A stretch of 64,000 nucleotides of DNA from an uncultured Clostridia bacterium (GTDB taxonomy: Bacteria > CAYTYR01 > UBA6262): assembly GCA_964441745.1 (NCBI GenBank), contig CAYTYR010000002.1:62001-126000 (forward strand), read 5' to 3'. The notes under the pieces are model-generated. The model ran no database searches. It worked only from the letters and a program-made list of their open reading frames with translations, and was not told the DNA's origin. How positions within the stretch are numbered: the stretch's first letter is position 1; the number at the start of each line of letters is the position of its first letter. Shown in pieces: positions 3,649 to 63,353 of this stretch. A program made the position numbers and the translations under genes.

Positions 3649-3666
3649 TAATACAATAAAGTATAT

Positions 3667-3765
3667 GGGTGATGGTTGTAGAAGTAGGTATAGAAGTAGG
3701 AAGTAGGTCTTAGGGTTTTAAGCCAAACTTCCTTAGACTTATGCTTACTTCCAAAACTTACACCC
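3667..3765 (+). repeat. Family A ~100 bp imperfect hairpin repeat, empty copy 1
   Basis: GGGTGATGGTTGTAGAAGTAGGTAT...CTTACTTCCAAAACTTACACCC. Confidence 0.9.
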
Positions 3766-3794
3766 TTTAACCTACTAAATAAATAGGAGCAAAA

Positions 3795-8188: not shown

Positions 8189-9234
8189 TTTCTGGTTACT
8201 ATGGTTATGATAATCTCGGTGACGAGCTTATTTTAAAAGCTATTATTGAACATCTCCGGGCTATTGATCCATCTTTAGATATTACCGTAATTTCCCACAG
8301 TCCCTGGCGTACGGTTAACTTGCATCCTTCGATCGAGGCAGTATCACGGAGAGATGTCTTTGGCATTTTTAAGGCCTTGCGGCAGTGCCAGCTTTTTATC
8401 AGCGGCGGCGGCGGGTTATTACAGGATACTACTGGCCAGGGTAGCGTCTTATACTATCTGGGGTGGGGGATCATAGCCAAAAAAATATTCCGTAAAAAAG
8501 TCATGCTCTATGCCCAGGGGATCGGCCCTTTGCACAGAAGTCTCTCCCGTTCTTTGGTAGGCGCTTGGATCGGTAAAATGGACCTGATCACTTTGCGCGA
8601 AGAGAGGTCGCGGCAAATACTGCAAGATCTGCGGGTACCAGATTCTATGATTAAAGTAACCGCTGATCCAGCGCTGGGGATGACGGTAAAAAATAGCGGG
8701 TCTTTGAGCGAGAAACATCCCTTATGCATCGGCGTAGTTTTGCGGCAGGGGCCGGATAAACTGCAGGCGGTACAGCCCTGGTGCGAGATCTTGACTAATG
8801 TTAAGAATATGTATAACGCCCGGATCCTGCTTCTTCCTTTCCAGGATCCTCATGATGTGAAATTAAACCGGTCTATCAAAGAAACCATGAAAGATAAAGT
8901 GGATCTTAAATACTGGGACAACCTGGGGGATATTTTTACTTTTTATGAAAGTGTGGATATTCTTGTCTCCATGAGGCTGCATGCTTTGATCCTGGCCGCA
9001 GTTTACGGTAAGCCGATGCTGGGTATTAATTATGACCCTAAGATAGATAATTTTTTGCGCTTATTTAACCAGCAGGCTGTAACCAGGGAAAAAGTAGTGA
9101 AAACGCTGGAAAATCTTGTCTATAAACAGAAAATAATTGCGGCAGAACAGAGTGCCGTATTGCAGCAATTGCAGGCACGCGCGAGGGAGAACGCAAAATT
9201 AGCGATGGCGCTAATTAACAGTAATAAAGGGTGA
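8173..9234 (+). CDS. csaB: Polysaccharide pyruvyl transferase CsaB
   Basis: ISGYYGYDNLGDE, SGGGGLLQD and MRLHALI motifs. Confidence 0.88.
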   Translation: MPKVLISGYYGYDNLGDELILKAIIEHLRAIDPSLDITVISHSPWRTVNLHPSIEAVSRRDVFGIFKALRQCQLFISGGGGLLQDTTGQGSVLYYLGWGIIAKKIFRKKVMLYAQGIGPLHRSLSRSLVGAWIGKMDLITLREERSRQILQDLRVPDSMIKVTADPALGMTVKNSGSLSEKHPLCIGVVLRQGPDKLQAVQPWCEILTNVKNMYNARILLLPFQDPHDVKLNRSIKETMKDKVDLKYWDNLGDIFTFYESVDILVSMRLHALILAAVYGKPMLGINYDPKIDNFLRLFNQQAVTREKVVKTLENLVYKQKIIAAEQSAVLQQLQARARENAKLAMALINSNKG

Positions 9235-9331
9235 AGGTTGTAGAAGTAGGTATGGAAGCAGGTCTAATGTTTGTGGTTAGAACCTAACACCCATAGACCT
9301 CAGACCAAACTTACTTCCAAAACATACACCT
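9229..9331 (+). repeat. Family A hairpin repeat, empty copy 2 (supplies the csaB TGA stop)
   Basis: GGGTGAAGGTTGTAGAAGTAGGTATGG...CTTACTTCCAAAACATACACCT. Confidence 0.9.
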
Positions 9332-9351
9332 AGTTATTCTTAGGAGAAAAC

Positions 9352-11319: not shown

Positions 11320-11347
11320 AAATAGTCCCGGGAGGAGAACTGAAATA

Positions 11348-11451
11348 AGGTGAAGGTTGGAGAAGTAGGTATGGAAGTAGGTTTGAGGTTTGTGGTTTAG
11401 AGCCTAATTCCCATAGACTTAAAACTAAACTTACTTCCAAAACTTACACCT
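11348..11451 (+). repeat. Family A hairpin repeat, empty copy 3
   Basis: AGGTGAAGGTTGGAGAAGTAGGTATGG...CTTACTTCCAAAACTTACACCT. Confidence 0.9.
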
Positions 11452-11501
11452 AATAACTATTTTAACTCGCGACTCGAGACAGTATTAAAACAGGAGGCAG
11501 C

Positions 11502-13889: not shown

Positions 13890-14282
13890 TTGAAAAAAAA
13901 TATAATTAAAGATAAAGCGTATCTTTTTGCTTTGAGCGTTATTAAATTAATTAAAAAAATGGGATTTGATCCTGCATCAAAAGTTTTAGGAAAGCAATTA
14001 GTAAGAGCAGCGACATCTATTGGGGCAAATATAGAAGAAGCTCAATCTGCCAGTAGCAGGAAAGATTTTATTAATAAAATTTATATAGCCAAAAAGGAAG
14101 CAAGAGAAGCTAATTATTGGTTAAGACTTATACGGGATGCTAGTTTATCTGATAATGATGAAATAAAGAAAATAATCAAAGATGGTGATGAAATCTACTA
14201 CATACTAACAGCAATTACTAAAACAGCAGAAAATAATAGTGTGAAATCCTTAATTTGTAATAAGCGCAGCGATAAAATTTAG
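13890..14282 (+). CDS. Four-helix bundle protein (TIGR02436 / 23S rRNA IVP family)
   Basis: QLVRAATSIGANIEEAQ.A.SRKDF..K..IA.KEA.E..YWL signature; visibly AT-rich. Confidence 0.9.
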   Translation: MKKNIIKDKAYLFALSVIKLIKKMGFDPASKVLGKQLVRAATSIGANIEEAQSASSRKDFINKIYIAKKEAREANYWLRLIRDASLSDNDEIKKIIKDGDEIYYILTAITKTAENNSVKSLICNKRSDKI

Positions 14283-22802: not shown

Positions 22803-22973
22803 TAAAGGGGGAAGAGAAGAAGATGAACCGTAAGCTAACCTATTTTTTTGCGTTTTTCTGGCCTGGCTGTGTTCGGTTGAGTATCTGGTCTTAGAGGAAG
22901 CGCGTTTGGCCGTTCCAGAGAGCGGTTATCACCTGTATGATGATTCCATCCCTTAAGTAATCCCCATGTTTGA

Positions 22974-23068
22974 AGTTGAAGGTTGTAGAAGTAGGTATAG
23001 AAATAGGTTGTAAGTCTTAGGTTTAAACTTAAGACCTTAGACTAAACTTACTTCCAAAACCTATACCT
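22974..23068 (+). repeat. Family A hairpin repeat, empty copy 4
   Basis: TTGAAGGTTGTAGAAGTAGGTATAG...CTTACTTCCAAAACCTATACCT. Confidence 0.9.
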
Positions 23069-23101
23069 GATTACTGTTCTTCGTATTGACTATCTTTCGC
23101 A

Positions 23102-30350: not shown

Positions 30351-30457
30351 AGGGTGAAAGGTTGTAGAAGTAGGTATGGAAGTAGGAAGGAAGTCTGAGG
30401 GTTTAAGCCCAACCTCCTAAGACTTCAGACTAAACTTACTTCCAAAACCTAAACCCT
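30351..30457 (+). repeat. Family A hairpin repeat, empty copy 5
   Basis: AGGGTGAAAGGTTGTAGAAGTAGG...CTTACTTCCAAAACCTAAACCCT. Confidence 0.9.
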
Positions 30458-30492
30458 CTAACTGGTTTTAACAAAAGGATAAGAGGTTACGC

Positions 30493-31707: not shown

Positions 31708-31711
31708 TAGT

Positions 31712-31817
31712 AGGGTGAAGGTTGTAGAAGTAGGTATGGAGGTAGGAAGTAAGTCTTAGGGTTTTTAGCCCAACTTCCTCAGACCACAGACTAAACTTAC
31801 TTCCAAACCCAACACCT
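31712..31817 (+). repeat. Family A hairpin repeat, empty copy 6
   Basis: AGGGTGAAGGTTGTAGAAGTAGG...CTTACTTCCAAACCCAACACCT. Confidence 0.9.
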
Positions 31818-31845
31818 ATTAACAGTTATTTTAAAGGGGGTTAAC

Positions 31846-32769: not shown

Positions 32770-32774
32770 TAGTA

Positions 32775-32878
32775 GGGTGAAGGTTGTAGAAGTAGGTATG
32801 GAAGTAAGTCTGAAGTCTTTGGATTAGAGCCTTACACCCATAGACCTCAGACCAAACTTACTTCCAAAACTTACACCC
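32775..32878 (+). repeat. Family A hairpin repeat, empty copy 7
   Basis: GGGTGAAGGTTGTAGAAGTAGG...CTTACTTCCAAAACTTACACCC. Confidence 0.9.
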
Positions 32879-32901
32879 AATGACATTATTAGAAGAAGAC
32901 T

Positions 32902-33810: not shown

Positions 33811-33818
33811 AAGTAAAA

Positions 33819-33922
33819 GGGTGAAGGTTGTAGAAGTAGGTATGGAAGTAGGAAGTAAGTCTTAGGATTCAAGCCCAATTTCTATAGACCTTAGACCATA
33901 CTTACTTCCAAACCCAACACCC
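33819..33922 (+). repeat. Family A hairpin repeat, empty copy 8
   Basis: GGGTGAAGGTTGTAGAAGTAGG...CTTACTTCCAAACCCAACACCC. Confidence 0.9.
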
Positions 33923-33945
33923 AATAACTGTTTTTAAGAGGGCAC

Positions 33946-39735: not shown

Positions 39736-40596
39736 ATGAAAAAAGCACTGCTTTTGTTATTTTTATTACTGCTGACCGCTGTCCTCTGTCCGCTGACCGC
39801 TGTAAATGCCGGGATGTTCGAACCGCTCGGCCTGGGCGCGCGGCCGCTGGCTATGGGCAAGTCTTTCACCGCCCTGGCCAATGATGCTTCCTGTATTTAC
39901 TGGAATCCGGCTGGCTTGACCCAGTTGGATAAAGATGAGATTATCACCATGTACAGCGACCTGTACAATATGGGGCTTATTTCTTACCAGGGAGTGTGTT
40001 ACGCTCATCCCGGCATTGGCGGCGGGGCCATTGGTTTTGGCTATACCCGGCTGGCTACTTCAGAAAAAGTGGATTTTCTTGATTTTCAGGAAAGCACTTT
40101 TATGTTTTCGTATGCCCTGAGTCTGCTGAGATATACCTCGGTCGGAATAAATTTAAAATACTACCTGGCTGATTTTGAAACCAGCGGCACCGGCGCTGGC
40201 ATCGATGCCGGTATCCTGTTCAACTATAACAATATTGTGTCAGTAGGATTTACTGCCCAGGACCTTAATGAACCAGAAGTACAGTTCCAGAGCGGCGGCG
40301 CAGATAAATTACCCATGAACTTGAAAGCCGGCCTGGCCATAGCGCCGATCCAGGACCTGGTAGTCGCTTTAGATATGGATAATATCAATGAAGATGCCAA
40401 ATTACACTTAGGAGCCGAGTACTGGCTGGGCAAGCATTTTGCCGTGCGGGCAGGCGGTATCAACCAGTACGAAAGCAACTGGACCTATTCCGGCGGCCTG
40501 GGTATTGTTTATAAAGCTATCAAGCTGGATTATGCCTACCAACGGCATTTTGACCTGGAAGATACGCATTTTGTATCCCTGGGATTTGTATTCTAA
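39736..40596 (+). CDS. PorV/PorQ-family outer-membrane beta-barrel
   Basis: GARPLAMG..FTALANDAS.IYWNPAG; terminal THFVSLGFVF; start moved to ATG after GAGG. Confidence 0.82.
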   Translation: MKKALLLLFLLLLTAVLCPLTAVNAGMFEPLGLGARPLAMGKSFTALANDASCIYWNPAGLTQLDKDEIITMYSDLYNMGLISYQGVCYAHPGIGGGAIGFGYTRLATSEKVDFLDFQESTFMFSYALSLLRYTSVGINLKYYLADFETSGTGAGIDAGILFNYNNIVSVGFTAQDLNEPEVQFQSGGADKLPMNLKAGLAIAPIQDLVVALDMDNINEDAKLHLGAEYWLGKHFAVRAGGINQYESNWTYSGGLGIVYKAIKLDYAYQRHFDLEDTHFVSLGFVF

Positions 40597-40700
40597 GGTG
40601 AAGGTTGTAGAAGTAGGTATGGAAGTAGGAAGTAAGTCTTAGAGCTTTAAGCCCAACTTCCTCAGACCTTAGACCATACTTACTTCCAAAACTTACACCT
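40596..40700 (+). repeat. Family A hairpin repeat, empty copy 9
   Basis: AGGTGAAGGTTGTAGAAGTAGG...CTTACTTCCAAAACTTACACCT. Confidence 0.9.
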
Positions 40701-40737
40701 GATAACTGCTTTTAGATTATACTTAAAGGATGGGAAA

Positions 40738-47969: not shown

Positions 47970-48024
47970 CAAAACAGGATTTTCTGCTATATTTAATAAA
48001 AGTAATCATAAAGTTAATAGTCAC

Positions 48025-48123
48025 AGGTTGAAGGTTGTAGAAGTAGGTATGGAAGTAGGAAGTAAGGCTTTAAGCCCAACTTCCTCAGACCTAAGACTAA
48101 ACCTACTTCCAAAACCAATACCC
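48025..48123 (+). repeat. Family A hairpin repeat, empty copy 10
   Basis: AGGTTGAAGGTTGTAGAAGTAGG...CCTACTTCCAAAACCAATACCC. Confidence 0.9.
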
Positions 48124-48155
48124 TTTAACTGTTTTTAGTATTAATAGGAGATCTC

Positions 48156-49103
48156 ATGTCAAAGTTTTTAGTTACCGGCGGGGCTGGCTTCATCGGCTCC
48201 AATATCACCGAAGCCCTGCTGCAGAAAAAGCACAAAGTCCGTATCCTGGACAATTTCGCTACCGGCAAGCTTTCCAATCTTGCCGGCTTCCGCTCCAAAA
48301 TTGACATCATCAAGGGCGATGTCCGCGATGTCAAGACGGTCAACCGGGCAGTCCAAGGGGTGGATTATGTTCTCCACCAGGCCGCTTTGCCTTCAGTGGC
48401 CCGTTCCGTAGCTGATCCTGCTCTTAGCAATGCGGTCAATATTGACGGCACCCTGAATGTCCTGATTGCGGCCCGTGACCACAAGGTCAAAAGGGTAGTC
48501 TATGCCGCCTCCAGCTCTGCTTATGGCGATACGCCAGTCTTGCCCAAGGTGGAGACGATGGCTTCCAATCCGCTCTCTCCCTATGCGACTACTAAACTAG
48601 CCGGAGAATTATACTGCCGCAATTTTGCCAGGATCTTCGGCCTGGAAACAGTCTGCCTGCGCTATTTCAACGTCTTTGGCCCCAAGCAGGACCCGGCTAG
48701 TTTTTACAGCGCGGTCATTCCCAAGTTTATCAGTGCTATGCTCATGGGAGAATCCCCGCGTATCAATGGTGACGGCCGGCAAAGCCGTGACTTTACCTAT
48801 ATCGAAAATGTAGTTTCAGCTAATATCCTGGCTTGTACCGCGCCCAAGGCCTCCGGCGAAGTATTTAATGTCGCCTGCGGCCGGCGTTATACTGTGCTGG
48901 AATTAGCAGAAAAAATAGCCCGCATCCTGCGGATGGCCCTGAAACCGGAATTCGGTCCGGCCGCGCCCGGTGATGTGAAACATTCCCTGGCAGATATCCG
49001 CAAAGCCAAAAAAATATTAAAATATACCGTGAAAGTGAACTTTGACGAAGGTCTGCGCCGCACTATTCACTGGTTTATTACCGGAGGAAAACAAGATGCA
49101 TGA
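48156..49103 (+). CDS. NAD-dependent nucleotide-sugar epimerase/dehydratase (WbpP-like SDR)
   Basis: VTGGAGFIGS, SPYATTK and LRYFNVFGP motifs. Confidence 0.92.
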   Translation: MSKFLVTGGAGFIGSNITEALLQKKHKVRILDNFATGKLSNLAGFRSKIDIIKGDVRDVKTVNRAVQGVDYVLHQAALPSVARSVADPALSNAVNIDGTLNVLIAARDHKVKRVVYAASSSAYGDTPVLPKVETMASNPLSPYATTKLAGELYCRNFARIFGLETVCLRYFNVFGPKQDPASFYSAVIPKFISAMLMGESPRINGDGRQSRDFTYIENVVSANILACTAPKASGEVFNVACGRRYTVLELAEKIARILRMALKPEFGPAAPGDVKHSLADIRKAKKILKYTVKVNFDEGLRRTIHWFITGGKQDA

Positions 49104-50943
49104 GGAAAGACTAAAAAAGATCGTGGAGAAAAAGGCTAAAGCCGCTATTATCGGTCTCGGCTATGTCGGACTGCCCCTGGCGGTAGAATTGGCCAAGGCT
49201 GGCTTTGATGTGACAGGCATAGATGTGGATAAGCGTAAGACAGATGCTATCAACAAAGGTCTTTCTTACATCCAGGATGTACCTTCAGCCGAAGTCAAAG
49301 AGCTGGTCAAAGCCGGCAAACTCCGGGCGACCACTGACTTTAGCGTCCTCAGGCATATCGACACTATCAATATCTGCGTCCCGACGCCTTTGCGCAAATC
49401 AAAAGACCCGGATATTTCCTATATTCTCTCGGCTACTGCAGAAATAGCCAAATACCTGCACAAGGGCCAGCTCATTATCCTGGAAAGCACCACCTATCCT
49501 GGCACCACCGAAGAAGTCATGCAGCCGATGCTGGAAAAGAAGGGGCTCAAAGCCGGCCGTGATTTCCACCTGGCTTTTTCACCGGAGCGCGTGGACCCGG
49601 GCAATCCCCAGTTTAAGACCAAGAATATTACCAAAGTTGTCGGCGGCTATACTCCCCACTGCACCGAGTTGGCCGTGGCTCTTTACAGCCAGGCCATTGA
49701 TAACGTCTTGCCAGTCAGCTCCACCCGGGTAGCCGAGACAGTCAAGCTGTTGGAAAATACCTTCCGCTCGATCAATATCGGCATGGTCAATGAAATGGCC
49801 ATTATCTGTGACAAGCTCGGTATCGATGTCTGGGAAGTGATCGATGCGGCTGCGACCAAGCCATTCGGCTTTATGCCATTCTATCCTGGCCCTGGCATTG
49901 GGGGGCATTGTCTTGCCGCTGATGAATACATCTTCGTAAAAAATGATATGGGTGTACAGACTATTAAAATCGGAGATTATGTAAATAATTTAAGCAATTC
50001 TGATTCCACTTTAAAGCATCAACTAAGGGATATTACCTTAGTTAAACCTCAAAATGCCCAAACCCTTTCTTTTGATATGCAAAGCAAGACCTTCTCTTAT
50101 AAAGATATTAATATTATGTCCAAAAGAGCATATAACGGGGAAATGAAAAGGATCAGCACTACTGATGGCCGTAAGATCACCGTCACAGATAAGCATCCCA
50201 TGCTGGTTCATGATGCTGAAGGCACTATACAGATCAAATTGGCTCAAGATATTCAGCCGGGAGATAGACTGCCACTTTGTTCTTTTTGGAAAGAAACAAC
50301 AGAAAATATCAGTAAAAAGTTCAAAAGACACGATTCTTTTGCTACCGTAGAAGTAAAAGCTGTTGACACCATGCCTGGGCAGGATGTTTATTCTATGGAA
50401 GTGGATGATACTAACACTTTTGTATCGTCTTATGGCATTGTTACCCATAATTGCATTCCATTAGACCCGCATTACCTGTCCTGGCGGGTACGGCTGGAAG
50501 GGTATGAAGCCAGGTTCATCGAACTGGCTGGACAGATCAACCGCTCCATGCCAGAATATGTCATCAACAAGCTCAACGATGCTCTCAATGACAAGGGTAA
50601 GTCAGTGAAAAATGCCAAGATCCTGGTCCTGGGAGTGGCTTACAAGAATGACATTGATGATGTCCGCGAATCGCCGGCTATTGATTTCATCAAGCTCCTG
50701 CAGAAAAAAGGCGCCAAAGTTAACTACCACGACCCGTTTATTCCAAACCTGGGACATGAAGGCATTAATTTAAAGTCTGTGCCCCTGACTGAGAGCACGG
50801 TCAAGTCTGTGGATGCGGTAGTCATCATCACCAGGCACAAGGCTATCGACTACAAATGGCTGGTTTCCAAGGCTAAATTGGTCATCGATACCCGTAATGC
50901 CACCAAATCCCTTGGTAAACGGGCTAATGTGGTGAAACTATAA
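49096..50943 (+). CDS. UDP-glucose/UDP-GlcNAc 6-dehydrogenase family protein interrupted by an intein
   Basis: IGLGYVGLP, ICVPTP, ESTTYPG and FSPER motifs; GPGIGGH|intein|CIPLDP. Confidence 0.92.
   Translation: MHEERLKKIVEKKAKAAIIGLGYVGLPLAVELAKAGFDVTGIDVDKRKTDAINKGLSYIQDVPSAEVKELVKAGKLRATTDFSVLRHIDTINICVPTPLRKSKDPDISYILSATAEIAKYLHKGQLIILESTTYPGTTEEVMQPMLEKKGLKAGRDFHLAFSPERVDPGNPQFKTKNITKVVGGYTPHCTELAVALYSQAIDNVLPVSSTRVAETVKLLENTFRSINIGMVNEMAIICDKLGIDVWEVIDAAATKPFGFMPFYPGPGIGGHCLAADEYIFVKNDMGVQTIKIGDYVNNLSNSDSTLKHQLRDITLVKPQNAQTLSFDMQSKTFSYKDINIMSKRAYNGEMKRISTTDGRKITVTDKHPMLVHDAEGTIQIKLAQDIQPGDRLPLCSFWKETTENISKKFKRHDSFATVEVKAVDTMPGQDVYSMEVDDTNTFVSSYGIVTHNCIPLDPHYLSWRVRLEGYEARFIELAGQINRSMPEYVINKLNDALNDKGKSVKNAKILVLGVAYKNDIDDVRESPAIDFIKLLQKKGAKVNYHDPFIPNLGHEGINLKSVPLTESTVKSVDAVVIITRHKAIDYKWLVSKAKLVIDTRNATKSLGKRANVVKL
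49909..50451 (+). mobile_element. Mini-intein (181 aa, no homing endonuclease)
   Basis: Starts CLAADE, block B ITVTDKHP, ends GIVTHN before +1 Cys. Confidence 0.92.
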
Positions 50944-50953
50944 TGAATCTGCG

Positions 50954-51262
50954 TTGATTTATTCTTTAACTGCTAAAGGTAATTTTTCTAAAGACTGGGG
51001 CCTAAAGGAACAGATACAAAGAGCCTCGGTTTCCATAATGAGTAATATTGCTGAGGGATTTGACTGTAGTTCTAGTATAGAATTTGCCAGGTTTCTTGGA
51101 ATAGCACGAAGGTCAGTTTCAGAGGTTCAAAACCAGCTTTATATTGCTCAAGATTTAGACTATATTAGTGTGGCTGAATTTAAACTCTTATATAATAACC
51201 TAGAAGAAACAAGAAGACTAATAACTGCCTTTATCAAGTATCTTAAAAGCCATAAGTCTTAA
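50954..51262 (+). pseudogene. Four-helix bundle protein (23S rRNA IVP family), 5'-truncated
   Basis: QIQRASVSIMSNIAEGF...EF.RFL.IA..S..EV..QL signature; N-terminal helix missing, in-frame TGA at 50933, no RBS. Confidence 0.75.
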
Positions 51263-51320
51263 CTCGCAACTCGCAACTCGCAACTCGCAACTCGCAACTC
51301 GCAACTTGGAACTCGTAACT
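51261..51320 (+). repeat. Heptamer tandem repeat (AACTCGC)x6 plus 2 degenerate units
   Basis: Direct reading; overlaps the stop codon of the four-helix-bundle remnant. Confidence 0.95.
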
Positions 51321-51503: not shown

Positions 51504-51569
51504 ATTTTCAAAATAGTTGGTATAACCTGGTATAACCAAATCGTACAATTTCAATAAAATATGTTTAAA

Positions 51570-51673
51570 GTTTGAGGTTGTAGAAGTAGGTATGGAAGTA
51601 AGAAGTAGGTCTTAAGGCTTAAAGCCCAACTTCCAAAGACCTCAAACCAAACCTACTTCCAAAACCAACACCC
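51570..51673 (+). repeat. Family A hairpin repeat, empty copy 11
   Basis: GAGGTTGTAGAAGTAGGTATGG...CCTACTTCCAAAACCAACACCC. Confidence 0.9.
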
Positions 51674-51723
51674 AATAACAGTATTTATCTCTGTAATCGT
51701 TTTTAAGAGGAGGTTACTTAAGT

Positions 51724-51900
51724 ATGAATGGTCATCTGACAGTATGTCAAGTTTGCCAAAGACTCCATTGCCATCCCAATACTCTCAAGAGATGGGAGAA
51801 ACGGTTGAGCCTGCGTGTCAAACGGGATTACCGTAACTATCGTATTTACACCGAAGACGACATCAAGAGGATCGAATCCTATATTACCCAGGAAAAATAA
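51724..51900 (+). CDS. Small MerR-family HTH protein (58 aa, absent from ORF track)
   Basis: Hand translation MNGHLTVCQVCQRLHCHPNTLKRWEKRLSLRVKRDYRNYRIYTEDDIKRIESYITQEK; RBS GAGGAGG. Confidence 0.8.
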   Translation: MNGHLTVCQVCQRLHCHPNTLKRWEKRLSLRVKRDYRNYRIYTEDDIKRIESYITQEK

Positions 51901-51921: not shown

Positions 51922-53538
51922 ATGAAAAGTAGAATTTTTTTAATTATTTTTACTCTAACTGTAATCTGTCCGCTGTCCGCTGTCCGCTGTGTTTGCGCTG
52001 CTAACTTCGACGAACAGCATCCCACTGCCCGTACTGCCGGCATGGGTGGCGCTTTTACCGGCCAGGCAGATGATATCGGTGCTCTCTGGTTCAACCCCGC
52101 TGGTACAACCCAGCTGACCCAGACCCAGGCTATCTATACCAATCTATCCCCATATATCACCCGGGAGAATGTCCCCTATTATCTGTCCCAATCCTTTAGT
52201 ATGGCTTTCCCTTTAACCACAAATAATGCTTTGGGCTTTGGCTGGAACAATTATCGGGTCAATTATACCTACCAGGAAAATACACTGCTGATGAATTATT
52301 CCCAGAAAATCAATCCATTTATCCCTTGGGAAATCAATGACCTGTCTTTTGGCTTGAACCTCAAAGGCCTCTTCTATGCGCCCAGTGGAGCTGGAGAGGA
52401 TATTTTTGATTCCCTTTCTGGCGGTGACAAGGCCAGGAACGCTTTAGGAATTGATGCTGGTGTGCGCTATAAGATCAACACGGCGCTTAATTTTGGCCTT
52501 TCTTCTATGAATATCAATGAACCTGCGGTGCATATCACTGATCAGTATCAGCGTCTGCCCATCCAAACCAGGATAGGTCTTTCCTATAAAGTGCCCATGC
52601 CCGAAGCTCTCAAGAACATCGGTATCGAGCAAATCACTGCCAATCTCGATGGGATCCTGGCCCAGGCTGAATGGGAGTCCAATATCGGAACGGAATTATC
52701 CCTGTTCAATAATGCCATTGCCTTGCGCGGAGGAGCTAATTCAACTGAAGCGTCTGCCGGGCTTGGCCTGGGGAGCATACAAACAAAGAAATTTGCCTTT
52801 GCGTTGGATTACGCATTTATCTATGGCTACGGCCGGGACTTGCGTGACCGCCAGCATATAATATCCATCAATGTCAGCCGCCTGCTCACCAAGAAACCAG
52901 AAACAGTAGAGACGCCGGAAGAAGAAGTATCACCTTACCGTTTAGGGCCGGATGACGTCCTGCAGATCATTACCCGCAATCATGATGAATTTAGCGGCAA
53001 ATTCGCAGTCGATCCCTATGGCAAGATCTTGATCCCGATGATCGGCGAGATCAAAGCCGAGGATCTGACCCGTGAAGAATTCACTGATGTCTTGAGAGAA
53101 GAAATCGGCAAATATGTCGAAGAAGCCAATGTCATAGTCTCTATTATCCAATACCGCAGTAAGGTGGTATATATCCTGGGTGAAGTGCGCACCCCTGGCA
53201 AATACCCGGTGGAAGGCGATTCTATCGCCCTGCGCGACGCTATTGCCGCCGCCGGTTTCCCGACTGGCCTGGCTGCCACCTGGAGAGTCTACATTATTAA
53301 GCCCAGGACTGTCCGCCCCAGCTACAAAATAGTGAACTTATACAAAATACTTTATCGCGGCAAGATGAAAAATAACATCATGATCACTCCTGGTGACATT
53401 GTCTATGTGCCGTCTACCATGCTGGGCAAGCTGGCTAACAGCCTGAGCCATTTGCTTGATCCATTCTATAAGACCAGGAGCCTGGTTACGCCATTATCAA
53501 CACCGACGCCATTAGTCGATGAGGATACAACGAACTAA
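51922..53538 (+). CDS. Fusion of PorV-like barrel with Wza-type polysaccharide export (Poly_export + SLBB) domains
   Basis: N-terminal ARTAGMGGAFTGQADD..ALWFNPAG; C-terminal YRLGPDDVLQI...VDPYGKI..PMIGEI...VYILGEV..PGKY. Confidence 0.8.
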   Translation: MKSRIFLIIFTLTVICPLSAVRCVCAANFDEQHPTARTAGMGGAFTGQADDIGALWFNPAGTTQLTQTQAIYTNLSPYITRENVPYYLSQSFSMAFPLTTNNALGFGWNNYRVNYTYQENTLLMNYSQKINPFIPWEINDLSFGLNLKGLFYAPSGAGEDIFDSLSGGDKARNALGIDAGVRYKINTALNFGLSSMNINEPAVHITDQYQRLPIQTRIGLSYKVPMPEALKNIGIEQITANLDGILAQAEWESNIGTELSLFNNAIALRGGANSTEASAGLGLGSIQTKKFAFALDYAFIYGYGRDLRDRQHIISINVSRLLTKKPETVETPEEEVSPYRLGPDDVLQIITRNHDEFSGKFAVDPYGKILIPMIGEIKAEDLTREEFTDVLREEIGKYVEEANVIVSIIQYRSKVVYILGEVRTPGKYPVEGDSIALRDAIAAAGFPTGLAATWRVYIIKPRTVRPSYKIVNLYKILYRGKMKNNIMITPGDIVYVPSTMLGKLANSLSHLLDPFYKTRSLVTPLSTPTPLVDEDTTN

Positions 53539-53550
53539 TTGATAGTTAAA

Positions 53551-54084
53551 GGGTGAAGGTTGTGGAAGTAGGTATGGAAGTAGGTCTAAAGTTTTTAGGT
53601 TTAAAATAATTTGAAAGGTAAATAATGGAAACTAAGAAAATCATCAGGAGTTTTTACGATTTAGATGTGTATCAAAGTACATATAATGCAAGCATAAAAG
53701 TAATGACTAAGATACTTCCAACACTACCAGAAAGTGAGAAATTTGATCTAAGAGATCAATTATCCAGATCCAGCAAAGCGATACCAAGATTAATAGCAGA
53801 AGGGTATGCGAAAAAGCATCAAAAAATGGGATTCCAGAAATATCTGGATGATGCTATGGCAGAAAATAATGAAACAATCGTAAGCTTAAGTCACTGCAGA
53901 GATATTTATTCTGATAAAATTGATATTGATTTATGTAAAGAGCTTATAAACTTGTATGACATCGCCGGGAAACAGTTATATAGGCTTTCACTGGCTTGGA
54001 CGACATTTAAACGGAAGGAAAGTTAGTAAGTAGTAGCCTAACACCCTACACCTTACTTCCATACTTACTTCCAAAACTTTCAAC
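53551..54084 (+). mobile_element. Family A hairpin element in filled form, carrying a four-helix-bundle gene between its arms
   Basis: Left arm 53551-~53602 (GGGTGAAGGTTGTGGAAGTAGGTATGGAAGTAGG); right arm ~54035-54084 (CCTTACTTCCATACTTACTTCCAAAACTTTCAAC); mobility inferred, not shown. Confidence 0.7.
53625..54026 (+). CDS. Four-helix bundle protein (23S rRNA IVP family)
   Basis: SFYDLDVYQ...LP.SEKFDL.DQL.RSSKAIP.LIAEG signature. Confidence 0.9.
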   Translation: METKKIIRSFYDLDVYQSTYNASIKVMTKILPTLPESEKFDLRDQLSRSSKAIPRLIAEGYAKKHQKMGFQKYLDDAMAENNETIVSLSHCRDIYSDKIDIDLCKELINLYDIAGKQLYRLSLAWTTFKRKES

Positions 54085-54121
54085 AATTAACCATATTTTA
54101 AAAAGGGGAATTAAAACAACT

Positions 54122-55495
54122 ATGGACCAAATCACCTTCAGCATCCGCGATTACTTAATGATTTTCTTCCGCCGCAAATGGATCTTTATCGTGGCTTTGT
54201 CTCTTTGCCTCATCGGCGGGATCATCTATGCCCTTACTGCTCCCAAGGTATATAATTCCGCATCTATTATCTATATCCAGAAAGCGGACATTCTTAATCC
54301 CCTGATGGATAAGATGGCCATCACCAGCCAATATACTGAGACTGTCAAGACCATGAGAGAACGTGTCTTGAGCTGGCCCCGGCTGGTCACTATGAGTGAA
54401 AGCATTAAACTGGCCAAGAATATCAAGACGCCGCTGGAATTCGAAAAGTACATTATTAACCTCAGGAAAAGGATCAATATTGAAATGTTTAACCAGGACT
54501 TGGTGCGCATATCCTTTGAAGACCAGGATCCTTATATTGCAAAACAAGTCGTTGAATATCTCACTAATAACTTTATCGACGAAACCATCCAGCTCAAAAG
54601 CGAAGAAGCAGTCAAGGCTATTGAATTCATTAGGGACCAGTTGAATGTCTATCGCGACAGATTGGAAGCCTCTGAAAAAGACCTGGGTGAATTAAAAGTT
54701 AAAGCGGAAATTGAAAATATTGATAAACTGAAAGGGCTGATTAAAGACCAACTTTCCAGGCAAGACAAGGTGGTAATATCAGAAGTCAAAAAAGAACAGA
54801 ACCCGGTCGTTAGGCAACTGAATGACCACTTGGCGAAATTAGAGAGAGAGCTCAGCGGTTTGCTCATTGACTCTACTGAACAGCATCCCCGGGTCCAGGA
54901 ATTGCGCAAGGAAATCTCCAAAACCAAGGCCAAATTATCCTCGGAGCTGGAAAATACCACTTCGGTCAGTGTGGAAGAGAAATCAGCTTCTAATCCGATT
55001 TACTCTGAACTGGACCAGAGACTTAAGGCCCTGGAATTAAAACGGGAAGAATTACTGCAAAAGCAGGAAGAAATAAAAAAGAAAAGCAGTAAATATAAAC
55101 TGTCTAATGTGAGCGATGCCGAGCTTTCAGCCATGGACCGCGATGCCAAAGTCAACGAAGCTCTCTACACTTCGCTCTTATCCAAGATGGAGAGCGCGCG
55201 TATCTCGCAACAGATGGAAACCCTGGACAAAGGCACCAGGTTTAAAGTGATTGACCCGGCTCGTATGCCCTTAAAGCCATCCAAGCCGAACATTTTTAAA
55301 TCGCTGCTCATGAGTATTGCTTTGGGACTTGGTTTGGGCTTTGCCGGTATCTACCTATTGGAATATCTGGACCATTCCTTGAGAAATATTGAAGACGCCA
55401 AGGCCTTCTTCGATAAACCGATACTTGGCGCTATCTCCAAGATTTCCCTGGAAGAAGACGCCAATAAAAATCTCAATCGAGTCATCCGTTCATAG
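54122..55495 (+). CDS. Polysaccharide co-polymerase (Wzz/GumC, Wzc N-terminal part)
   Basis: Two TM helices flanking a coiled coil; HPRV motif; VIDPA.MP.KP.KPN. Confidence 0.88.
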   Translation: MDQITFSIRDYLMIFFRRKWIFIVALSLCLIGGIIYALTAPKVYNSASIIYIQKADILNPLMDKMAITSQYTETVKTMRERVLSWPRLVTMSESIKLAKNIKTPLEFEKYIINLRKRINIEMFNQDLVRISFEDQDPYIAKQVVEYLTNNFIDETIQLKSEEAVKAIEFIRDQLNVYRDRLEASEKDLGELKVKAEIENIDKLKGLIKDQLSRQDKVVISEVKKEQNPVVRQLNDHLAKLERELSGLLIDSTEQHPRVQELRKEISKTKAKLSSELENTTSVSVEEKSASNPIYSELDQRLKALELKREELLQKQEEIKKKSSKYKLSNVSDAELSAMDRDAKVNEALYTSLLSKMESARISQQMETLDKGTRFKVIDPARMPLKPSKPNIFKSLLMSIALGLGLGFAGIYLLEYLDHSLRNIEDAKAFFDKPILGAISKISLEEDANKNLNRVIRS

Positions 55496-58203: not shown

Positions 58204-58575
58204 ATGGATCTATTGATAAAAAACGACATTGAGAAAAGGACGCGTAACTACGCTATACAAGCAATTAAATTAGCAAAGAGTATTGAAAAAGACGATATAA
58301 ATCGAATACTGATTAGACAATATGTTAGATCAGCCACATCGCTTGGAGCTAATGTAGCTGAAGCCCAAGCAGCTTCAAGCAGAAAAGATTTCGTTAATAA
58401 GATGCAAATAGCAAGTAAGGAGGCTCGTGAAACAAAGTATTGGCTAAGCATAATGCGCGATATAGAAGTTTGCACTAAGGCTAAAATAGCAGAGAACATC
58501 CAGGAAGCAGGTCAAATTATCAATATAATAACAGCTATAGTAAAAAATACTCAAAAAAATGAAGCCTATTTTTAG
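58204..58575 (+). CDS. Four-helix bundle protein (TIGR02436 family)
   Basis: RQYVRSATSLGANVAEAQAASSRKDF..K..IA.KEARET.YWL. Confidence 0.9.
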   Translation: MDLLIKNDIEKRTRNYAIQAIKLAKSIEKDDINRILIRQYVRSATSLGANVAEAQAASSRKDFVNKMQIASKEARETKYWLSIMRDIEVCTKAKIAENIQEAGQIINIITAIVKNTQKNEAYF

Positions 58576-58593
58576 GCCAGGGAGGAAATAATA

Positions 58594-59601
58594 ATGTTGT
58601 TTAACCTTAACTCAAAACTCAAAACTTATGACTCAAAACTGTTTTTAACATTGCTGCTTCTATGCGCCGTAATCCAACCACGAACTCTCTTGGCCCAAAG
58701 CCATAAAAACTCCGGCGCCAACGGCGCCCAAATATTGGAATTAAAAACCGGCGCTCGCCCCTCCGCCATGGGCGGCGCGTTTGTGAGTATCAGCGATGAT
58801 TCTAATGCTGTCGCCTACAATCCAGCCGGCTTGGCTTATTTGACCAAAACAGAGCTTCAGCTCAACCAGAACAAATTATTTTCTGAAGCTACTTCCAACT
58901 ACATTGGCTGGGTCTATCCCTTGGATGAAATGCATGCCCGCAATGTTTTTGACCTGGGTACTTTAGCTGGCAACCTGAACTTTGTTGATTATGGCAAGAT
59001 AGCCGGTCGCGATAATTTGGGCAATGACACCGGAGAATTCGGAGCCAGGGACAGAGTCATCTCTCTGGCCTATGGCAAGGCCTTTACTACTAACTTTGCC
59101 GTTGGCTTAACTGCCAGGCAAATTCGGGAAGAGATTGCCGCTGTCACTGCCAATGGTTACAGCTTTGATGCCGGTATGCTCTTCACCAATATTATGGATA
59201 CCTTTAATATCGGCATTGCTGCCCAAAACTTGGGAGACAAGATCACCTTTGAGCAGGAAGCCAATCCTCTGCCCGCCAATTATGTCATCGGTACCTCCTT
59301 AAACCTCTTTGATAACAGCTTGACCTTAGCCGCTGACCTGAACAAGCCAGTCCATGACTACTACCATTGGAACTTTGGCAGTGAATATTGGCTCACCAGT
59401 GTCTTAGCTCTGCGTCTGGGCTATGATACCAAGCATGATATCGGCAACGGGCTCTCAACAGGAATCGGCGTTAGTTTGCAGGATTTTGAATTTTCCTTTG
59501 TCCCGCTCTCTGAACTGGCGATCAACTATGCCTATGTTTCCCGCGGTGACCTTGGTGTCATCCACCAGATAGAGTTGGTGCTAAAGATAGGTATTGAGTA
59601 A
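58594..59601 (+). CDS. PorV/PorQ-family outer-membrane beta-barrel
   Basis: GAQILEL..GARPSAMGGAF....DD....YNPAG; DLGVIHQI near C-terminus. Confidence 0.82.
   Translation: MLFNLNSKLKTYDSKLFLTLLLLCAVIQPRTLLAQSHKNSGANGAQILELKTGARPSAMGGAFVSISDDSNAVAYNPAGLAYLTKTELQLNQNKLFSEATSNYIGWVYPLDEMHARNVFDLGTLAGNLNFVDYGKIAGRDNLGNDTGEFGARDRVISLAYGKAFTTNFAVGLTARQIREEIAAVTANGYSFDAGMLFTNIMDTFNIGIAAQNLGDKITFEQEANPLPANYVIGTSLNLFDNSLTLAADLNKPVHDYYHWNFGSEYWLTSVLALRLGYDTKHDIGNGLSTGIGVSLQDFEFSFVPLSELAINYAYVSRGDLGVIHQIELVLKIGIE
58600..58642 (+). repeat. Family C right arm (AAAACTC heptamers), in frame in the N-terminus of the downstream gene
   Basis: TTTAACC TTAACTC AAAACTC AAAACTT ATGACTC AAAACTG. Confidence 0.75.
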
Positions 59602-59625: not shown

Positions 59626-59711
59626 TTCCGGTTTTAGAGTGCGGCCAACGGGAGTCTCCGCCAACAAGCTTTGGCGGACGCAGCGCAGAAGCCTTAGTGG
59701 AGGAGAAGAGT
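59626..59711 (+). repeat. Family E spacer repeat, copy 1 (5' shortened)
   Basis: TTCCGGTTTTAGAGTGCGGCCAA.GGGAGTCTCCGCCAA...TTAGTGGAGGAGAAGAGT. Confidence 0.9.
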
Positions 59712-59878
59712 TTCCTGGTTATTAGATAGAGATAGTCATCAAGATTAGCATGGAATAAAGCCACTGTAAATAGCATAATTAGTATATTATACTTGACAAT
59801 TTATTAGTATATATAGTATATTAATATTAGTAATTACTAAAGTAATGCACCTGCAAAACAGAAGGGGCGCTCTAAACA

Positions 59879-61168: not shown

Positions 61169-61170
61169 TG

Positions 61171-61294
61171 ACTCCGCCACTGCCGGTTTTAGAGTGCGGC
61201 CAATGGGAGTCTCCGCCAACATCCTCCAATAAGCTTTGGCGGACTAAAGAGCTTTGGCGGACGCAGCGCAGAAGCCTTAGTGGAGGAGAAGAGT
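61171..61294 (+). repeat. Family E spacer repeat, copy 2 (with nested internal expansion)
   Basis: ACTCCGCCACT...AGTGGAGGAG; AGCTTTGGCGGAC occurs twice. Confidence 0.9.
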
Positions 61295-61365
61295 GGGTAA
61301 AATAGGCAGCTTTCACGATTCAGTGCCTGCCCTTGCAGTTTTATATTAAGGTTATTGATAAATCC

Positions 61366-61409
61366 TTGACACTTAGTAGTAAATATGTTATTCTTACAGT
61401 AGTAAATAT
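61366..61409 (+). promoter_or_regulatory. Sigma70 promoter with direct-repeat operator
   Basis: TTGACA-17-TATTCT with TG extension; AGTAGTAAATAT at 61375 and 61398. Confidence 0.7.
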
Positions 61410-61427
61410 TACCAGGAGGTGATAAAT

Positions 61428-61700
61428 ATGCTCGCCAAAGTCAGTATTAAACACCAGATTACGATTCCCAAAAACATCGCGGTTGCTTTTAATCTCAAAA
61501 AAGGGGACTTTCTGGAAATTGAGAGAAAGGGAAATAAGATTATTATGATTCCAAAAGAAGTTATTCTTGAAGATAAATATCCACAGGAAAGCCTGGCGGC
61601 CGCGGAAAAAATCCTGGCCAAAGGCCTGCCTAAAGAAGAAATCACCTTTAACTCAGGGGTAGCCGTGGTAGACTTTTTTAAAAAAAGGGTTAAAAAATGA
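61428..61700 (+). CDS. AbrB/MazE/SpoVT-family antitoxin
   Basis: KVS.K.QITIPK.I...FNLKKGD.LEI. Confidence 0.85.
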   Translation: MLAKVSIKHQITIPKNIAVAFNLKKGDFLEIERKGNKIIMIPKEVILEDKYPQESLAAAEKILAKGLPKEEITFNSGVAVVDFFKKRVKK

Positions 61701-62074: not shown

Positions 62075-62097
62075 AAAGTGATTAAATGAGTAGTATT

Positions 62098-62151: not shown

Positions 62152-62167
62152 TAGCTAGGAGGGATAA

Positions 62168-63346: not shown

Positions 63347-63353
63347 ATTAACC

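What the first reader, a model, noticed from the sequence alone, without database searches (positions are those of the whole stretch)
53551..54084. Filled and empty forms of one hairpin element: a four-helix-bundle (IVP/Avd-like) gene sits in the loop of a repeat that occurs 11 more times without it
Seen: the ~100 bp family A repeat is split here. Its left arm (GGGTGAAGGTTGTGGAAGTAGGTATGGAAGTAGG) lies before the AT-rich gene 53625-54026 and its right arm (CCTTACTTCCATACTTACTTCCAAAACTTTCAAC) lies after it. The other 11 copies have only a short loop. Established: this protein family (PF05635/TIGR02436) is encoded in the loop of long RNase III-excised helices in 23S rRNA intervening sequences, and shares its fold with the nucleic-acid-binding DGR accessory protein Avd. 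Inference: this is an intervening-sequence-like element living in mRNA operons, with gene-bearing and gene-less members. It could be a mobile element with no canonical transposase, or a protein-plus-cognate-hairpin RNA processing/regulatory system.
Basis: partly seen in the sequence, partly recalled or inferred. Interest (0 to 1): 0.92.

Follow-up and report, generated by a model that had tools for sequence, protein, structure and literature searches.

The report
Hairpin cassette carrying a four-helix-bundle gene
A small gene of the family known from ribosomal-RNA intervening sequences sits at the tip of a long hairpin between two capsule-export genes, the same hairpin recurs many times without the gene, and this gene-in-a-hairpin layout holds across many bacterial phyla.

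Summary
Window 53549-54091 is one family-A hairpin split at its apex by a PF05635/TIGR02436 gene (53625-54026). Eleven gene-less copies lie in the window and 58 in the 2.07-Mb genome.

The pattern is general. Six of the genome's 7 PF05635 genes lie between complementary simple-repeat arms. In 73 loci from many phyla, 52 show flank complementarity above the 95th percentile of shuffles. Arms are 7- or 8-nt tandem repeats in 59 of 73, G-rich upstream and C-rich downstream.

The wza-wzz junction is polymorphic among congeners: no element; a gene-less hairpin of another family; A arms with the orthologous gene; or other arms with another PF05635 gene.

Best reading (confidence 0.55): an intervening-sequence-type hairpin cassette living in operon spacers, with gene-less relatives, and mobile or fast-turning-over.

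Not shown: RNase III cutting, protein-hairpin binding, how it moves.

Against an RNA-level reading:
- No G-U over A-C excess in the arms.
- The hairpin folds equally well on both strands.
- Covariation is weak.

Against a protein-hairpin dependence: one genome without the gene has heptad hairpins, and one with 9 genes showed no repeat families in the part sampled.

The parts
53549..53604 (+). Left (5') arm of the split family-A hairpin. It is G-rich and C-poor and contains GGAAGTAGG twice.
   Evidence: Aligns to positions 4-59 of the family-A profile at 33.3 bits. Exact 34-mer at 53551-53584.
53605..53624 (+). Short leader between the arm and the start codon, with a GAAAGG ribosome-binding-like motif.
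   Evidence: Read. A similar GAAAGG(A/T)AAA precedes the 58-60% homologues in G003 and G005.
53625..54026 (+). PF05635 / TIGR02436 four-helix-bundle gene (133 aa), the cargo at the hairpin apex.
   Evidence: Pfam 59 bits; TIGR02436 50.4 bits. AlphaFold2 model pLDDT 92 with four helices. Best fold matches are 2GSC (TM 0.79/0.89), 2RLD, and Avd 4DWL (0.68/0.81). dN/dS 0.07 against the G002 orthologue.
54036..54091 (+). Right (3') arm of the split family-A hairpin, C-rich and G-poor.
   Evidence: Aligns to the profile up to position 115. Inverted repeat I2. Pairs with the left arm in the fold.
51922..53538 (+). Upstream host gene: polysaccharide export protein (Poly_export + SLBB; wza-like).
54122..55495 (+). 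Downstream host gene: chain-length determinant (Wzz + GNVR).
3665..3772 (+). Gene-less family-A copy
9227..9340 (+). Gene-less family-A copy
11346..11460 (+). Gene-less family-A copy
22972..23078 (+). Gene-less family-A copy
30352..30466 (+). Gene-less family-A copy
31710..31827 (+). Gene-less family-A copy
32772..32886 (+). Gene-less family-A copy
33816..33932 (+). Gene-less family-A copy (best match to the profile)
40594..40710 (+). Gene-less family-A copy
48024..48133 (+). Gene-less family-A copy
51566..51682 (+). Gene-less family-A copy
13890..14282 (+). Second PF05635 gene of the window, between AT-rich complementary arms (TTCTAAATTACAAATTACA... / ...AAATTTAGAATTT).
50954..51313 (+). Third PF05635 gene. 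It is 5'-truncated (profile positions 15-105) and is followed by an (AACTCGC)n array; no left arm is present.
   Evidence: D12
58204..58575 (+). Fourth PF05635 gene, between GAGTTTTGA-type and AACTCAAAACTC-type arms.

Best explanation
This is an intervening-sequence-type hairpin cassette sitting in an operon spacer instead of an rRNA helix.

Shown:
- A complete family-A hairpin carries a ribosome-binding-like motif plus a PF05635 four-helix-bundle ORF at its apex.
- The cassette lies between the stop codon of wza and the start of wzz, on the same strand as both.
- The protein is under purifying selection.
- The same arms occur 58 times in the genome without a gene.
- PF05635 genes across phyla are embedded in the same way, between G-rich upstream and C-rich downstream arms built of 7-8-nt tandem repeats.
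- Occupancy of one orthologous site differs among species of the genus.

Inferred:
- The cassette is co-transcribed with the operon.
- The arms form a long double-stranded stem that RNase III cuts, as shown experimentally for rRNA intervening sequences. That would separate the flanking cistrons and release the ORF as its own RNA, so the insertion is tolerated.
- Gene plus arms travel as a unit, also between phyla, and the gene-less copies are derived or parallel forms of the same hairpin.

How copies move is unknown.
For: Anatomy: the split is at the apex, with the left arm on profile positions 4-59 and the right arm running to 115, and a long closing stem.

Family: PF05635 59 bits and TIGR02436 50.4 bits. 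The fold matches 2GSC, 2RLD and Avd.

Selection: dN/dS is 0.07 against the 90%-identical G002 orthologue.

Genome: 58 full gene-less copies. 48 of 58 lie between two genes co-oriented with the element, and 52 of 57 follow a co-oriented gene. They typically begin a few to about 20 nt after the stop codon and end about 20 nt before the next start (listing). All 7 PF05635 genes are co-oriented with both neighbours. 6 of 7 lie between complementary simple-repeat arms (read), and these arms match gene-less hairpins elsewhere in the genome.

Across phyla: of 73 loci with both flanks (from 80 fetched), 52 exceed the 95th percentile of shuffles for upstream/downstream complementarity and 27 exceed the shuffle maximum; the direct-orientation control gives 11 and 2. 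G exceeds C upstream in 70 of 73, and C exceeds G downstream in 59 of 73. Arms are periodic in 59 of 73 loci, almost only with period 7 or 8, against 2 of 146 shuffled arms. 54 of 73 lie between two co-oriented ORFs.

Gene-less hairpins with the same motif as the local cassette occur in Niastella populi and in a Melioribacteraceae MAG.

Turnover at the wza-wzz junction: G004 has a 25-nt spacer only. G005 has a gene-less hairpin of another family. G000 and G002 have A arms with the orthologous gene. G003 has ATCAGG/CCTGAT arms with a 27%-identical PF05635 gene, followed by about 17 nt that resemble the 3' end of the A right arm. At 7 of the 8 G002 family-A sites where G000 has no profile match, G000 holds other simple-repeat sequence; at the eighth it holds an internally deleted A.

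Unit of inheritance: protein identity correlates with shared arm 7-mers (Spearman 0.30; 0 of 500 permutations reach it), including pairs from different phyla such as L060 and L069 at 75% identity.

Analogy: the Coxiella IVS has a 28-bp stem, tandem heptamers upstream of the S23p ORF, and RNase III cuts mapped in the stem (PMC4990558, passages). An RNase III gene is present in this genome.
Against: - No RNA evidence exists. No RNA run holds the stretch, so transcription through the element and cutting are untested.
- No RNA-strand signature in the arms: 130 G-U against 117 A-C mismatches over 62 loci (29 loci against 21; p = 0.32).
- Family A folds as well on the opposite strand (-32.6 against -33.7 kcal/mol; the element strand is the more stable in 25 of 58).
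- Covariation among the 11 window copies is weak: score 0.140 against 0.116 for shuffles, reached by 19 of 500; 3 of 27 pairs show compensatory changes.
- The orientation bias is confounded with replication direction: 50 of 58 agree with the regional gene majority and 50 of 58 with GC skew. Only 4 cases are informative, and 3 of them follow the gene.
- No target-site duplication or sharp insertion boundary was seen.
- The gene and the hairpin families are not strictly linked. G006 has no PF05635 match at 95% completeness, yet has AAGTTAT-type heptad hairpins (7 of 91 spacers share repeats). G012 has 9 PF05635 genes and 0 of 111 sampled spacers share repeats.
- The 58-60% homologues of this protein have ACGGT/ACCGT arms, not A arms.
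- The protein-arm correlation includes orthologous loci in related species, whose flanks are alike by synteny.
Confidence: 0.55

Rival explanations
1. The hairpins are host cis-elements of operon spacers: RNA stabilisers, processing sites or attenuators, like the cyanobacterial STRR hairpins or REP elements. They are kept because a hairpin is useful at those sites. The PF05635 gene is a separate selfish gene that inserts into hairpin tips, or is retained there, and contributes nothing to the hairpins.
For: - Hairpins fill the spacers between co-oriented genes.
- At 7 of the 8 G002 family-A sites where G000 has no profile match, G000 holds other simple-repeat sequence (some of it only one arm), as if the slot rather than the sequence were kept.
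- G006 has heptad hairpins without any PF05635 match.
- STRR 7-bp-repeat hairpins between hupS and hupL are described, with transcript stability or translational coupling proposed (PMC2670836, passage).
- The gene sits exactly at the apex of an otherwise complete hairpin.
Against: - The G004 wza-wzz junction works with a 25-nt spacer and no hairpin.
- Arms and gene are co-inherited across phyla.
- No other kind of gene was seen in a split hairpin among the 45 small genes listed from the 120 genes with the strongest flank pairing.
- There is no strand-specific pairing signal.
Confidence: 0.25
2. The hairpins are DNA-level miniature mobile elements of the REP/REPIN or MITE kind, moved in trans by a transposase encoded elsewhere, for example one of the genome's Y1 (IS200-like) transposase homologues. 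Their orientation bias reflects insertion into single-stranded DNA at the replication fork. The four-helix-bundle gene is a passenger.
For: - 8 PF01797 matches in the genome.
- Interspersed palindromic repeats at 58 or more sites, present in 4 of 5 congeners and in none of 25 more distant genomes searched.
- Orientation agrees with GC skew in 50 of 58.
- Arms are equally complementary on both strands.
- One copy has a symmetric internal deletion.
Against: - The Y1 genes read are flanked by their own, different repeats (GGGGTCAG... / ...CTGACCCC), not by heptad hairpins.
- No target duplication or conserved flanking tetranucleotide was seen.
- A passenger reading does not explain why PF05635 genes in many phyla always have such arms.
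- 3 of the 4 informative copies follow the gene, not the regional strand.
Confidence: 0.12
3. The hairpins are ordinary intrinsic terminators, and the gene is an unrelated small gene that happens to lie between two half-sites.
For: A stem followed by a T-rich tail is seen in some copies: TTTT within about 25 nt of the end in 27 of 58.
Against: - TTTTT occurs in only 8 of 58.
- 48 of 58 are followed, typically within about 20 nt, by the next co-oriented gene with no room for a promoter.
- The two halves align to one profile with the break at the apex.
- No Rfam family matches.
Confidence: 0.03

Closest known systems
Intervening sequences (IVS) of 23S rRNA that carry an S23p/PF05635 ORF (Coxiella burnetii; also Leptospira, Brucella and Xanthomonas as named in PMC4990558)
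   Same: - The same protein family sits in the loop.
- Long terminal complementary arms form the stem.
- The 5' arm region has tandem heptamers (GACAGAT in Coxiella).
- ORF-less and ORF-bearing forms both exist among rRNA insertions (PMC11270868, passage).
- The element is regarded as selfish, with its origin and mobility unexplained.
   Different: - The host site is a spacer between protein genes, not an rRNA helix.
- The gene-less form is a dispersed family of 58 copies.
- The ORF here is under strong purifying selection (dN/dS 0.07), whereas the Coxiella ORF is reported as decaying and probably untranslated.
- RNase III excision is shown there and untested here.
STRR (short tandemly repeated repetitive) hairpins of filamentous cyanobacteria
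   Same: 7-bp tandem repeats form hairpins between co-transcribed genes such as hupS-hupL, and their function is unknown (PMC2670836, passage). The gene-less hairpins here and in G006, G031 and G032 have the same build.
   Different: No link between STRR and PF05635 genes appeared in my searches. The organisms here are not labelled cyanobacteria. I did not examine any cyanobacterial genome.
REP/REPIN elements with their RAYT transposase
   Same: - Dispersed intergenic palindromic repeats.
- A 'filled' form in which a gene is bracketed by inverted copies of the repeat, and many 'empty' forms.
   Different: - The bracketed gene is a 133-aa four-helix bundle with no known catalytic motif, not a Y1 transposase.
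- The genome's Y1 homologues carry other repeats.
Avd, the accessory protein of diversity-generating retroelements
   Same: Same fold: TM 0.68/0.81 to 4DWL_B, with matches to the DGR ribonucleoprotein 8UBB. PF05635 is the Pfam family found for Avd-like genes (PMC10053308, passage).
   Different: - No reverse transcriptase (PF00078) is found in the genome.
- The Avd equivalog model NF033474 is not matched by this protein at E <= 0.001.
- No template or variable repeat context.
Correia/ERIC-type miniature inverted-repeat elements co-transcribed into mRNAs
   Same: About 100-150-nt hairpin-forming repeats inside transcription units.
   Different: Those have defined terminal inverted repeats and target duplications. 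None was seen here, and they carry no PF05635 gene.

Membership tests
PF05635 / TIGR02436 (23S rRNA IVS protein; four helix bundle protein) | Scores above the curated cut-offs of the family models | tested here: met
   PF05635 59 bits against 33.8. TIGR02436 50.4 bits against 24.
PF05635 / TIGR02436 (23S rRNA IVS protein; four helix bundle protein) | Up-down four-helix bundle like Xcc0516 (2GSC) and BT_0352 (2RLD) | tested here: met
   Model pLDDT 92 with helices 14-33, 36-62, 67-94 and 101-132. 2GSC_B TM 0.79/0.89 and 2RLD TM 0.69/0.81 at Foldseek E about 1e-3, with no match below 1e-3. By sequence, 2GSC at E = 0.0064.
PF05635 / TIGR02436 (23S rRNA IVS protein; four helix bundle protein) | Homopentameric ring (reported for the Xanthomonas protein; PMC4990558 passage) | not tested
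   No complex prediction was run.
rRNA intervening sequence (IVS) element | Loop or ORF closed by a long stem formed by terminal complementary arms | tested here: met
   Fold of 53538-54100. Inverted repeat I2, 58 nt, 74% complementary.
rRNA intervening sequence (IVS) element | Inserted in a helix of a 23S (or 16S) rRNA gene | tested here: not met
   It lies between a Poly_export/SLBB gene and a Wzz/GNVR gene. No rRNA is in the window, and 23S rRNA is not in the assembly.
rRNA intervening sequence (IVS) element | Cut out of the transcript by RNase III | not testable with these tools
   No RNA run holds the stretch. The genome does have an RNase III gene.
rRNA intervening sequence (IVS) element | Short tandem (heptameric) repeats in the arm region, as in Coxiella | tested here: inconclusive
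   Met for related cassettes: 59 of 73 loci are periodic, with periods 7 or 8. In this copy the arm repeats GGAAGTAGG at a 12-nt spacing by eye; its periodicity was not measured.
DGR accessory protein Avd | Matches the Avd equivalog model and lies beside a reverse transcriptase with template/variable repeats | tested here: not met
   No NF033474 match for this protein at E <= 0.001. 0 PF00078 matches in the genome at 98% completeness.
REP/REPIN-RAYT system | A Y1 transposase gene bracketed by the same repeat that is dispersed in the genome | tested here: not met
   There are 8 PF01797 matches, but those read are flanked by a different repeat. The gene bracketed by family A is PF05635.
MITE | Terminal inverted repeats plus a target-site duplication | tested here: inconclusive
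   Arms are present. No duplication was recognisable at 8 sites compared between G000 and G002, where the other genome held another repeat or a deletion form rather than an empty site.
STRR-type heptamer-repeat hairpin | Tandem 7-bp repeats and their complement forming a hairpin between co-oriented genes | tested here: met
   Gene-less examples in G006 and in G031 and G032. Periods 7 and 8 dominate. Whether these are the same family as the cyanobacterial STRR was not tested.
Intrinsic terminator | Stem directly followed by a run of U | tested here: not met
   TTTTT near the 3' end in 8 of 58 copies.

The most novel reading that the evidence does not exclude
rRNA intervening sequences, cyanobacterial-type heptamer-repeat hairpins and the widespread 'four helix bundle protein' genes are one class of element. 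A ring-forming PF05635 protein recognises the 7-8-nt tandem repeats of its own arms. This protein-repeat pair controls RNase III processing, and possibly copying, of hairpins into transcribed spacers and helix tips. That would be a mobile element with no transposase, integrase or reverse transcriptase of its own.
Probability: 0.2. Interest if true: 0.95.

Novelty: new variant of a known kind. Interest (0 to 1): 0.8.

Why it matters
PF05635/TIGR02436 is a very common family of unknown function, and rRNA intervening sequences have had no explained origin since the 1990s. This locus, with the survey around it, shows three things:
- The gene-in-a-hairpin layout is not peculiar to rRNA. It is the normal habitat of this gene family in operon spacers across phyla.
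- The arms have a fixed grammar: 7-8-nt tandem repeats, G-rich on the 5' side and C-rich on the 3' side.
- Gene-less hairpins with the same grammar form dispersed families that turn over between sister species.

This links three poorly understood things (IVS, STRR-like hairpins, four-helix-bundle or Avd-like proteins). It also gives concrete tests in cultured carriers such as Niastella populi: end-mapping in wild type and an rnc mutant, and binding of the protein to its repeats.

I found no paper describing this in the library searched. Subscription journals and supplementary files were not visible.

Tried and rejected
- The search for related loci with a 7-protein alignment found no stretch conserved enough. 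A single protein was used instead, so the cross-phylum sample covers one subfamily (48-93% identity to the C13 gene).
- RNA evidence: no RNA holder was listed.
- Read laying on 4 DNA runs gave only joints that come from paralogous gene-less copies, not alleles of this site. Contigs break at the repeat. One X3 contig bridges the left arm into the gene.
- 23S rRNA is not in the assembly, so an rRNA IVS in this organism could not be looked for.
- RNA.duplexfold energies of gene flanks did not discriminate, because the genome is full of repeats. The PF05635 genes ranked 18th, 24th and lower of 1903.
- A blastn self-search for hairpins found none even in G000 and was dropped as insensitive.
- RNAalifold on 58 copies gave no structure. 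A register-based pair count was used instead.
- Nesting of family A inside other hairpins was seen by eye in some G002 loci and in G031. For the 58 G000 copies, 0 exceed the 95th percentile of shuffles for outer-flank complementarity; a TTGACTG-like motif follows 15 of 58.
- The estimate of about 5 repeats per arm is bounded below by the window used and is not evidence.
- A second 'same site, different cassette' case upstream of an outer-membrane gene (window 58204 against G002 C24:11522-11887) was dropped. The downstream genes are only 29% identical.
- No PADLOC defence family matches the proteins.
- No Rfam family matches the hairpins.
Full report
**The observation**

The 34-nt left arm lies at 53551-53584. 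It has 8 further + strand matches at up to 3 mismatches, against none in any of 100 shuffles. The repeat finder gives 12 copies of the left half and 11 of the right half, and pairs 53542-53599 with 54037-54094 as an inverted repeat. Between the arms lies an ORF, 53625-54026 (133 aa). It scores 59 bits on PF05635 (cut-off 33.8) and 50.4 bits on TIGR02436 (cut-off 24).

An AlphaFold2 model (pLDDT 92) has four helices. Its best structural matches are Xcc0516 (2GSC, TM 0.79/0.89), BT_0352 (2RLD) and, more weakly, Avd (4DWL_B, TM 0.68/0.81). No Foldseek E-value is below 1e-3.

A profile built from the 11 gene-less window copies aligns the left arm to model positions 4-59 and the right arm up to position 115. 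So a complete hairpin is interrupted exactly at its apex by about 430 nt: a 20-nt leader, the ORF and about 9 nt more. RNAfold closes the whole 563 nt with a long outer stem. In the filled copy the right arm (CCTTACTTCCATACTTACTTCC) pairs with the left arm more continuously than in the gene-less copies.

**The genome**

The window is C2:62001-126000 of a 2.07-Mb, 39-contig assembly (98% complete). The profile finds 58 full gene-less copies and 13 partial pieces, two of which are the split arms. The other partial pieces read are truncated or shortened copies, and no second filled A copy was found.

- 48 of 58 copies lie between two genes on the element's strand.
- 52 of 57 follow a co-oriented gene, and 4 are antisense to both neighbours.
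- Copies typically begin a few to about 20 nt after the upstream stop codon and end about 20 nt before the next start (listing).
- The window holds 11 gene-less copies plus the split one, where about 1.8 would be expected from its length (my arithmetic).

The genome has 7 PF05635 matches, 4 of them in this window. Reading their flanks:
- Six lie between complementary arms made of short simple motifs, such as TAGCGTATAGCG / CGCTATACGCTA and TTTAGAATTTAGA-type arms.
- The seventh (50954-51262) is 5'-truncated and keeps only a downstream (AACTCGC)n array.

These arms match many gene-less hairpins elsewhere in the genome. 495 of 957 intergenic segments fall into one similarity cluster, with several dominant motif families. 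Among the 45 small genes (200 aa or fewer) listed from the 120 genes with the strongest flank pairing, only PF05635 genes showed a split simple-repeat hairpin.

**Relatives**

Family A is found in 4 of 5 other species of the genus and in none of 25 more distant genomes searched. PF05635 is found in all 5 congeners and in 8 of the 25 others.

The wza-wzz junction has four states:
- G004: a 25-nt spacer and nothing else.
- G005: a gene-less hairpin of another family (GCAGTAA / TTACTGGC).
- G000 and G002: A arms with orthologous genes (90% amino-acid identity; dN/dS 0.07).
- G003: ATCAGG / CCTGAT arms around a PF05635 gene only 27% identical, followed by about 17 nt that resemble the 3' end of the A right arm.

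The closest homologues of the window protein in G003 and G005 (58-60% identity) lie elsewhere, in a conserved context that I read as a glutamate synthase junction (my reading of the flanking sequence, not run against a family library). They have ACGGT / ACCGT arms, and homology to the window gene ends at the ORF boundaries.

32 family-A pieces were found in the fetched G002 loci. At 8 sites the orthologous G000 site had no profile match. Seven of these hold other simple-repeat sequence, some of it only one arm, and the eighth holds an A copy with a symmetric internal deletion.

**Beyond the genus**

A scan of one genome per species returned 80 loci encoding relatives of another PF05635 gene of this genome (48-93% identity). 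They come from Planctomycetota, Omnitrophota, Bacteroidota, Acidobacteriota, candidate phyla radiation groups, Desulfobacterota and others. 73 of them had both 110-nt flanks.

- Complementarity: 52 of 73 exceed the 95th percentile of shuffles for upstream/downstream complementarity, and 27 exceed the maximum of 146 shuffles. The same test in direct orientation gives 11 and 2.
- Polarity: G exceeds C upstream in 70 of 73, and C exceeds G downstream in 59 of 73.
- Periodicity: 51 upstream and 39 downstream arms are internally periodic (59 of 73 loci), against 2 of 146 shuffled arms. Period 7 occurs 52 times, period 8 33 times, and periods 6 or 9 5 times.
- Context: 54 of 73 lie between two co-oriented open frames.
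- Co-inheritance: protein identity correlates with shared arm 7-mers (Spearman 0.30; 0 of 500 permutations reach it). Pairs from different phyla share arms, but orthologous loci in related species inflate this.

In Niastella populi and a Melioribacteraceae MAG, the motif that flanks the local PF05635 gene also builds gene-less hairpins. It also builds hairpins whose loops hold other hairpins.

**What argues against an RNA-level, protein-dependent system**

- No RNA run holds the stretch.
- The arms show no excess of G-U over A-C mismatches: 130 against 117; 29 loci against 21; p = 0.32.
- Family A folds equally well on either strand.
- Covariation in the 11 window copies is weak: 3 of 27 pairs are compensatory, and the score is reached by 19 of 500 shuffles. 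Over 58 copies some pairs vary both ways, but A-C cells are common.
- The orientation bias cannot be separated from replication direction.
- G006, with no PF05635 match, has heptad hairpins. G012, with 9 PF05635 genes, has none of 111 sampled spacers sharing repeats.
- There is no reverse transcriptase in the genome.
- There are 8 Y1-transposase homologues, but those read carry their own, different repeats.
- Only 8 of 58 copies are followed by TTTTT, so the hairpins are not plain terminators.

**What is known**

Passages of PMC4990558 describe the Coxiella IVS:
- a 428-nt selfish element in helix 45;
- a 28-bp terminal stem;
- tandem GACAGAT heptamers upstream of the S23p ORF, varying in number between strains;
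- RNase III cuts mapped in the stem;
- an origin still unexplained.

Passages of PMC11270868 call the protein uncharacterised and report it in 16S and 23S insertions of candidate phyla radiation bacteria. A passage of PMC10053308 links PF05635 to Avd. A passage of PMC2670836 describes cyanobacterial STRR hairpins of 7-bp repeats between co-transcribed genes.

Six library searches found no description of PF05635 genes in hairpins outside rRNA, or of their gene-less counterparts.

**Verdict**

It is one instance of a general, apparently undescribed rule: PF05635 genes live at the tips of polar, 7-8-nt-repeat hairpins in operon spacers, beside gene-less hairpins of the same build, and occupancy turns over between sister species.

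The most likely reading is an IVS-type cassette that is tolerated because its stem is processed in the transcript. That step, the role of the protein and the way copies spread are inferences. Several tests here failed to give the RNA-level signature that this reading would predict.

Noticed in passing
window 49042-50943 (+): The UDP-glucose/GDP-mannose dehydrogenase gene carries an intein: an Intein_splicing domain at residues 333-470, between the central and C-terminal dehydrogenase domains. The 5'-truncated PF05635 gene starts 10 nt after its stop codon.
   Followed up: no
window 17406-17497 and 17626-17712 (+): Two c-di-GMP-I riboswitch aptamers in tandem (59 and 61.9 bits, both above the gathering scores) inside the polysaccharide gene cluster. 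They are the D19 repeat.
   Followed up: no
whole window: The window is a hot spot. It holds 4 of the genome's 7 PF05635 genes and 12 of 59 family-A elements in 3% of the genome. All are on the + strand, in a long run of co-oriented polysaccharide genes.
   Followed up: partly
window 59626-63452, also 29274-29318 and 39656-39700: Another dispersed repeat family with a GC-rich core (CCGCCAA...GGCGG; families D8-D11, D16). It is unlike the heptad hairpins. Similar sequences follow several genes elsewhere in the genome.
   Followed up: no
G000 C8:5396-6343, C1:182315-183262, C22:25815-26810 and others (outside the window): Eight matches to the Y1 (IS200-like) transposase family. Several are ORFs of about 315 aa. 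Some are bracketed by their own GGGGTCAG... / ...CTGACCCCATTG repeats.
   Followed up: partly
G000 C7:72002-72409 and C7:72674-72782 (outside the window): The genome's RNase III gene is followed by a family-A hairpin on the same strand.
   Followed up: no
L010 (G000 C12:24200-25300): The left arm of this PF05635 cassette is expanded into several tandem copies of a unit of about 37 nt and runs into a 100-N assembly gap. The right arm is single.
   Followed up: no
L179, L180 (G031 C10:300-850, C7:300-1250): Hairpins with GTGAATA-repeat arms enclose one to three copies of a different palindromic repeat (core CCCCTCTCTTA...AGAGAGGGG). These are hairpins nested in hairpin loops in a distant phylum.
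   Followed up: partly
window 51724-51900 (+): A 58-aa MerR-type helix-turn-helix ORF sits just upstream of the wza-like gene.
   Followed up: no
L001 11380-12100 and window 58576-58640: The right arms of two PF05635 cassettes overlap the annotated 5' end of the next ORF, an outer-membrane-type protein. Either the arm is translated or the true start lies further downstream.
   Followed up: no
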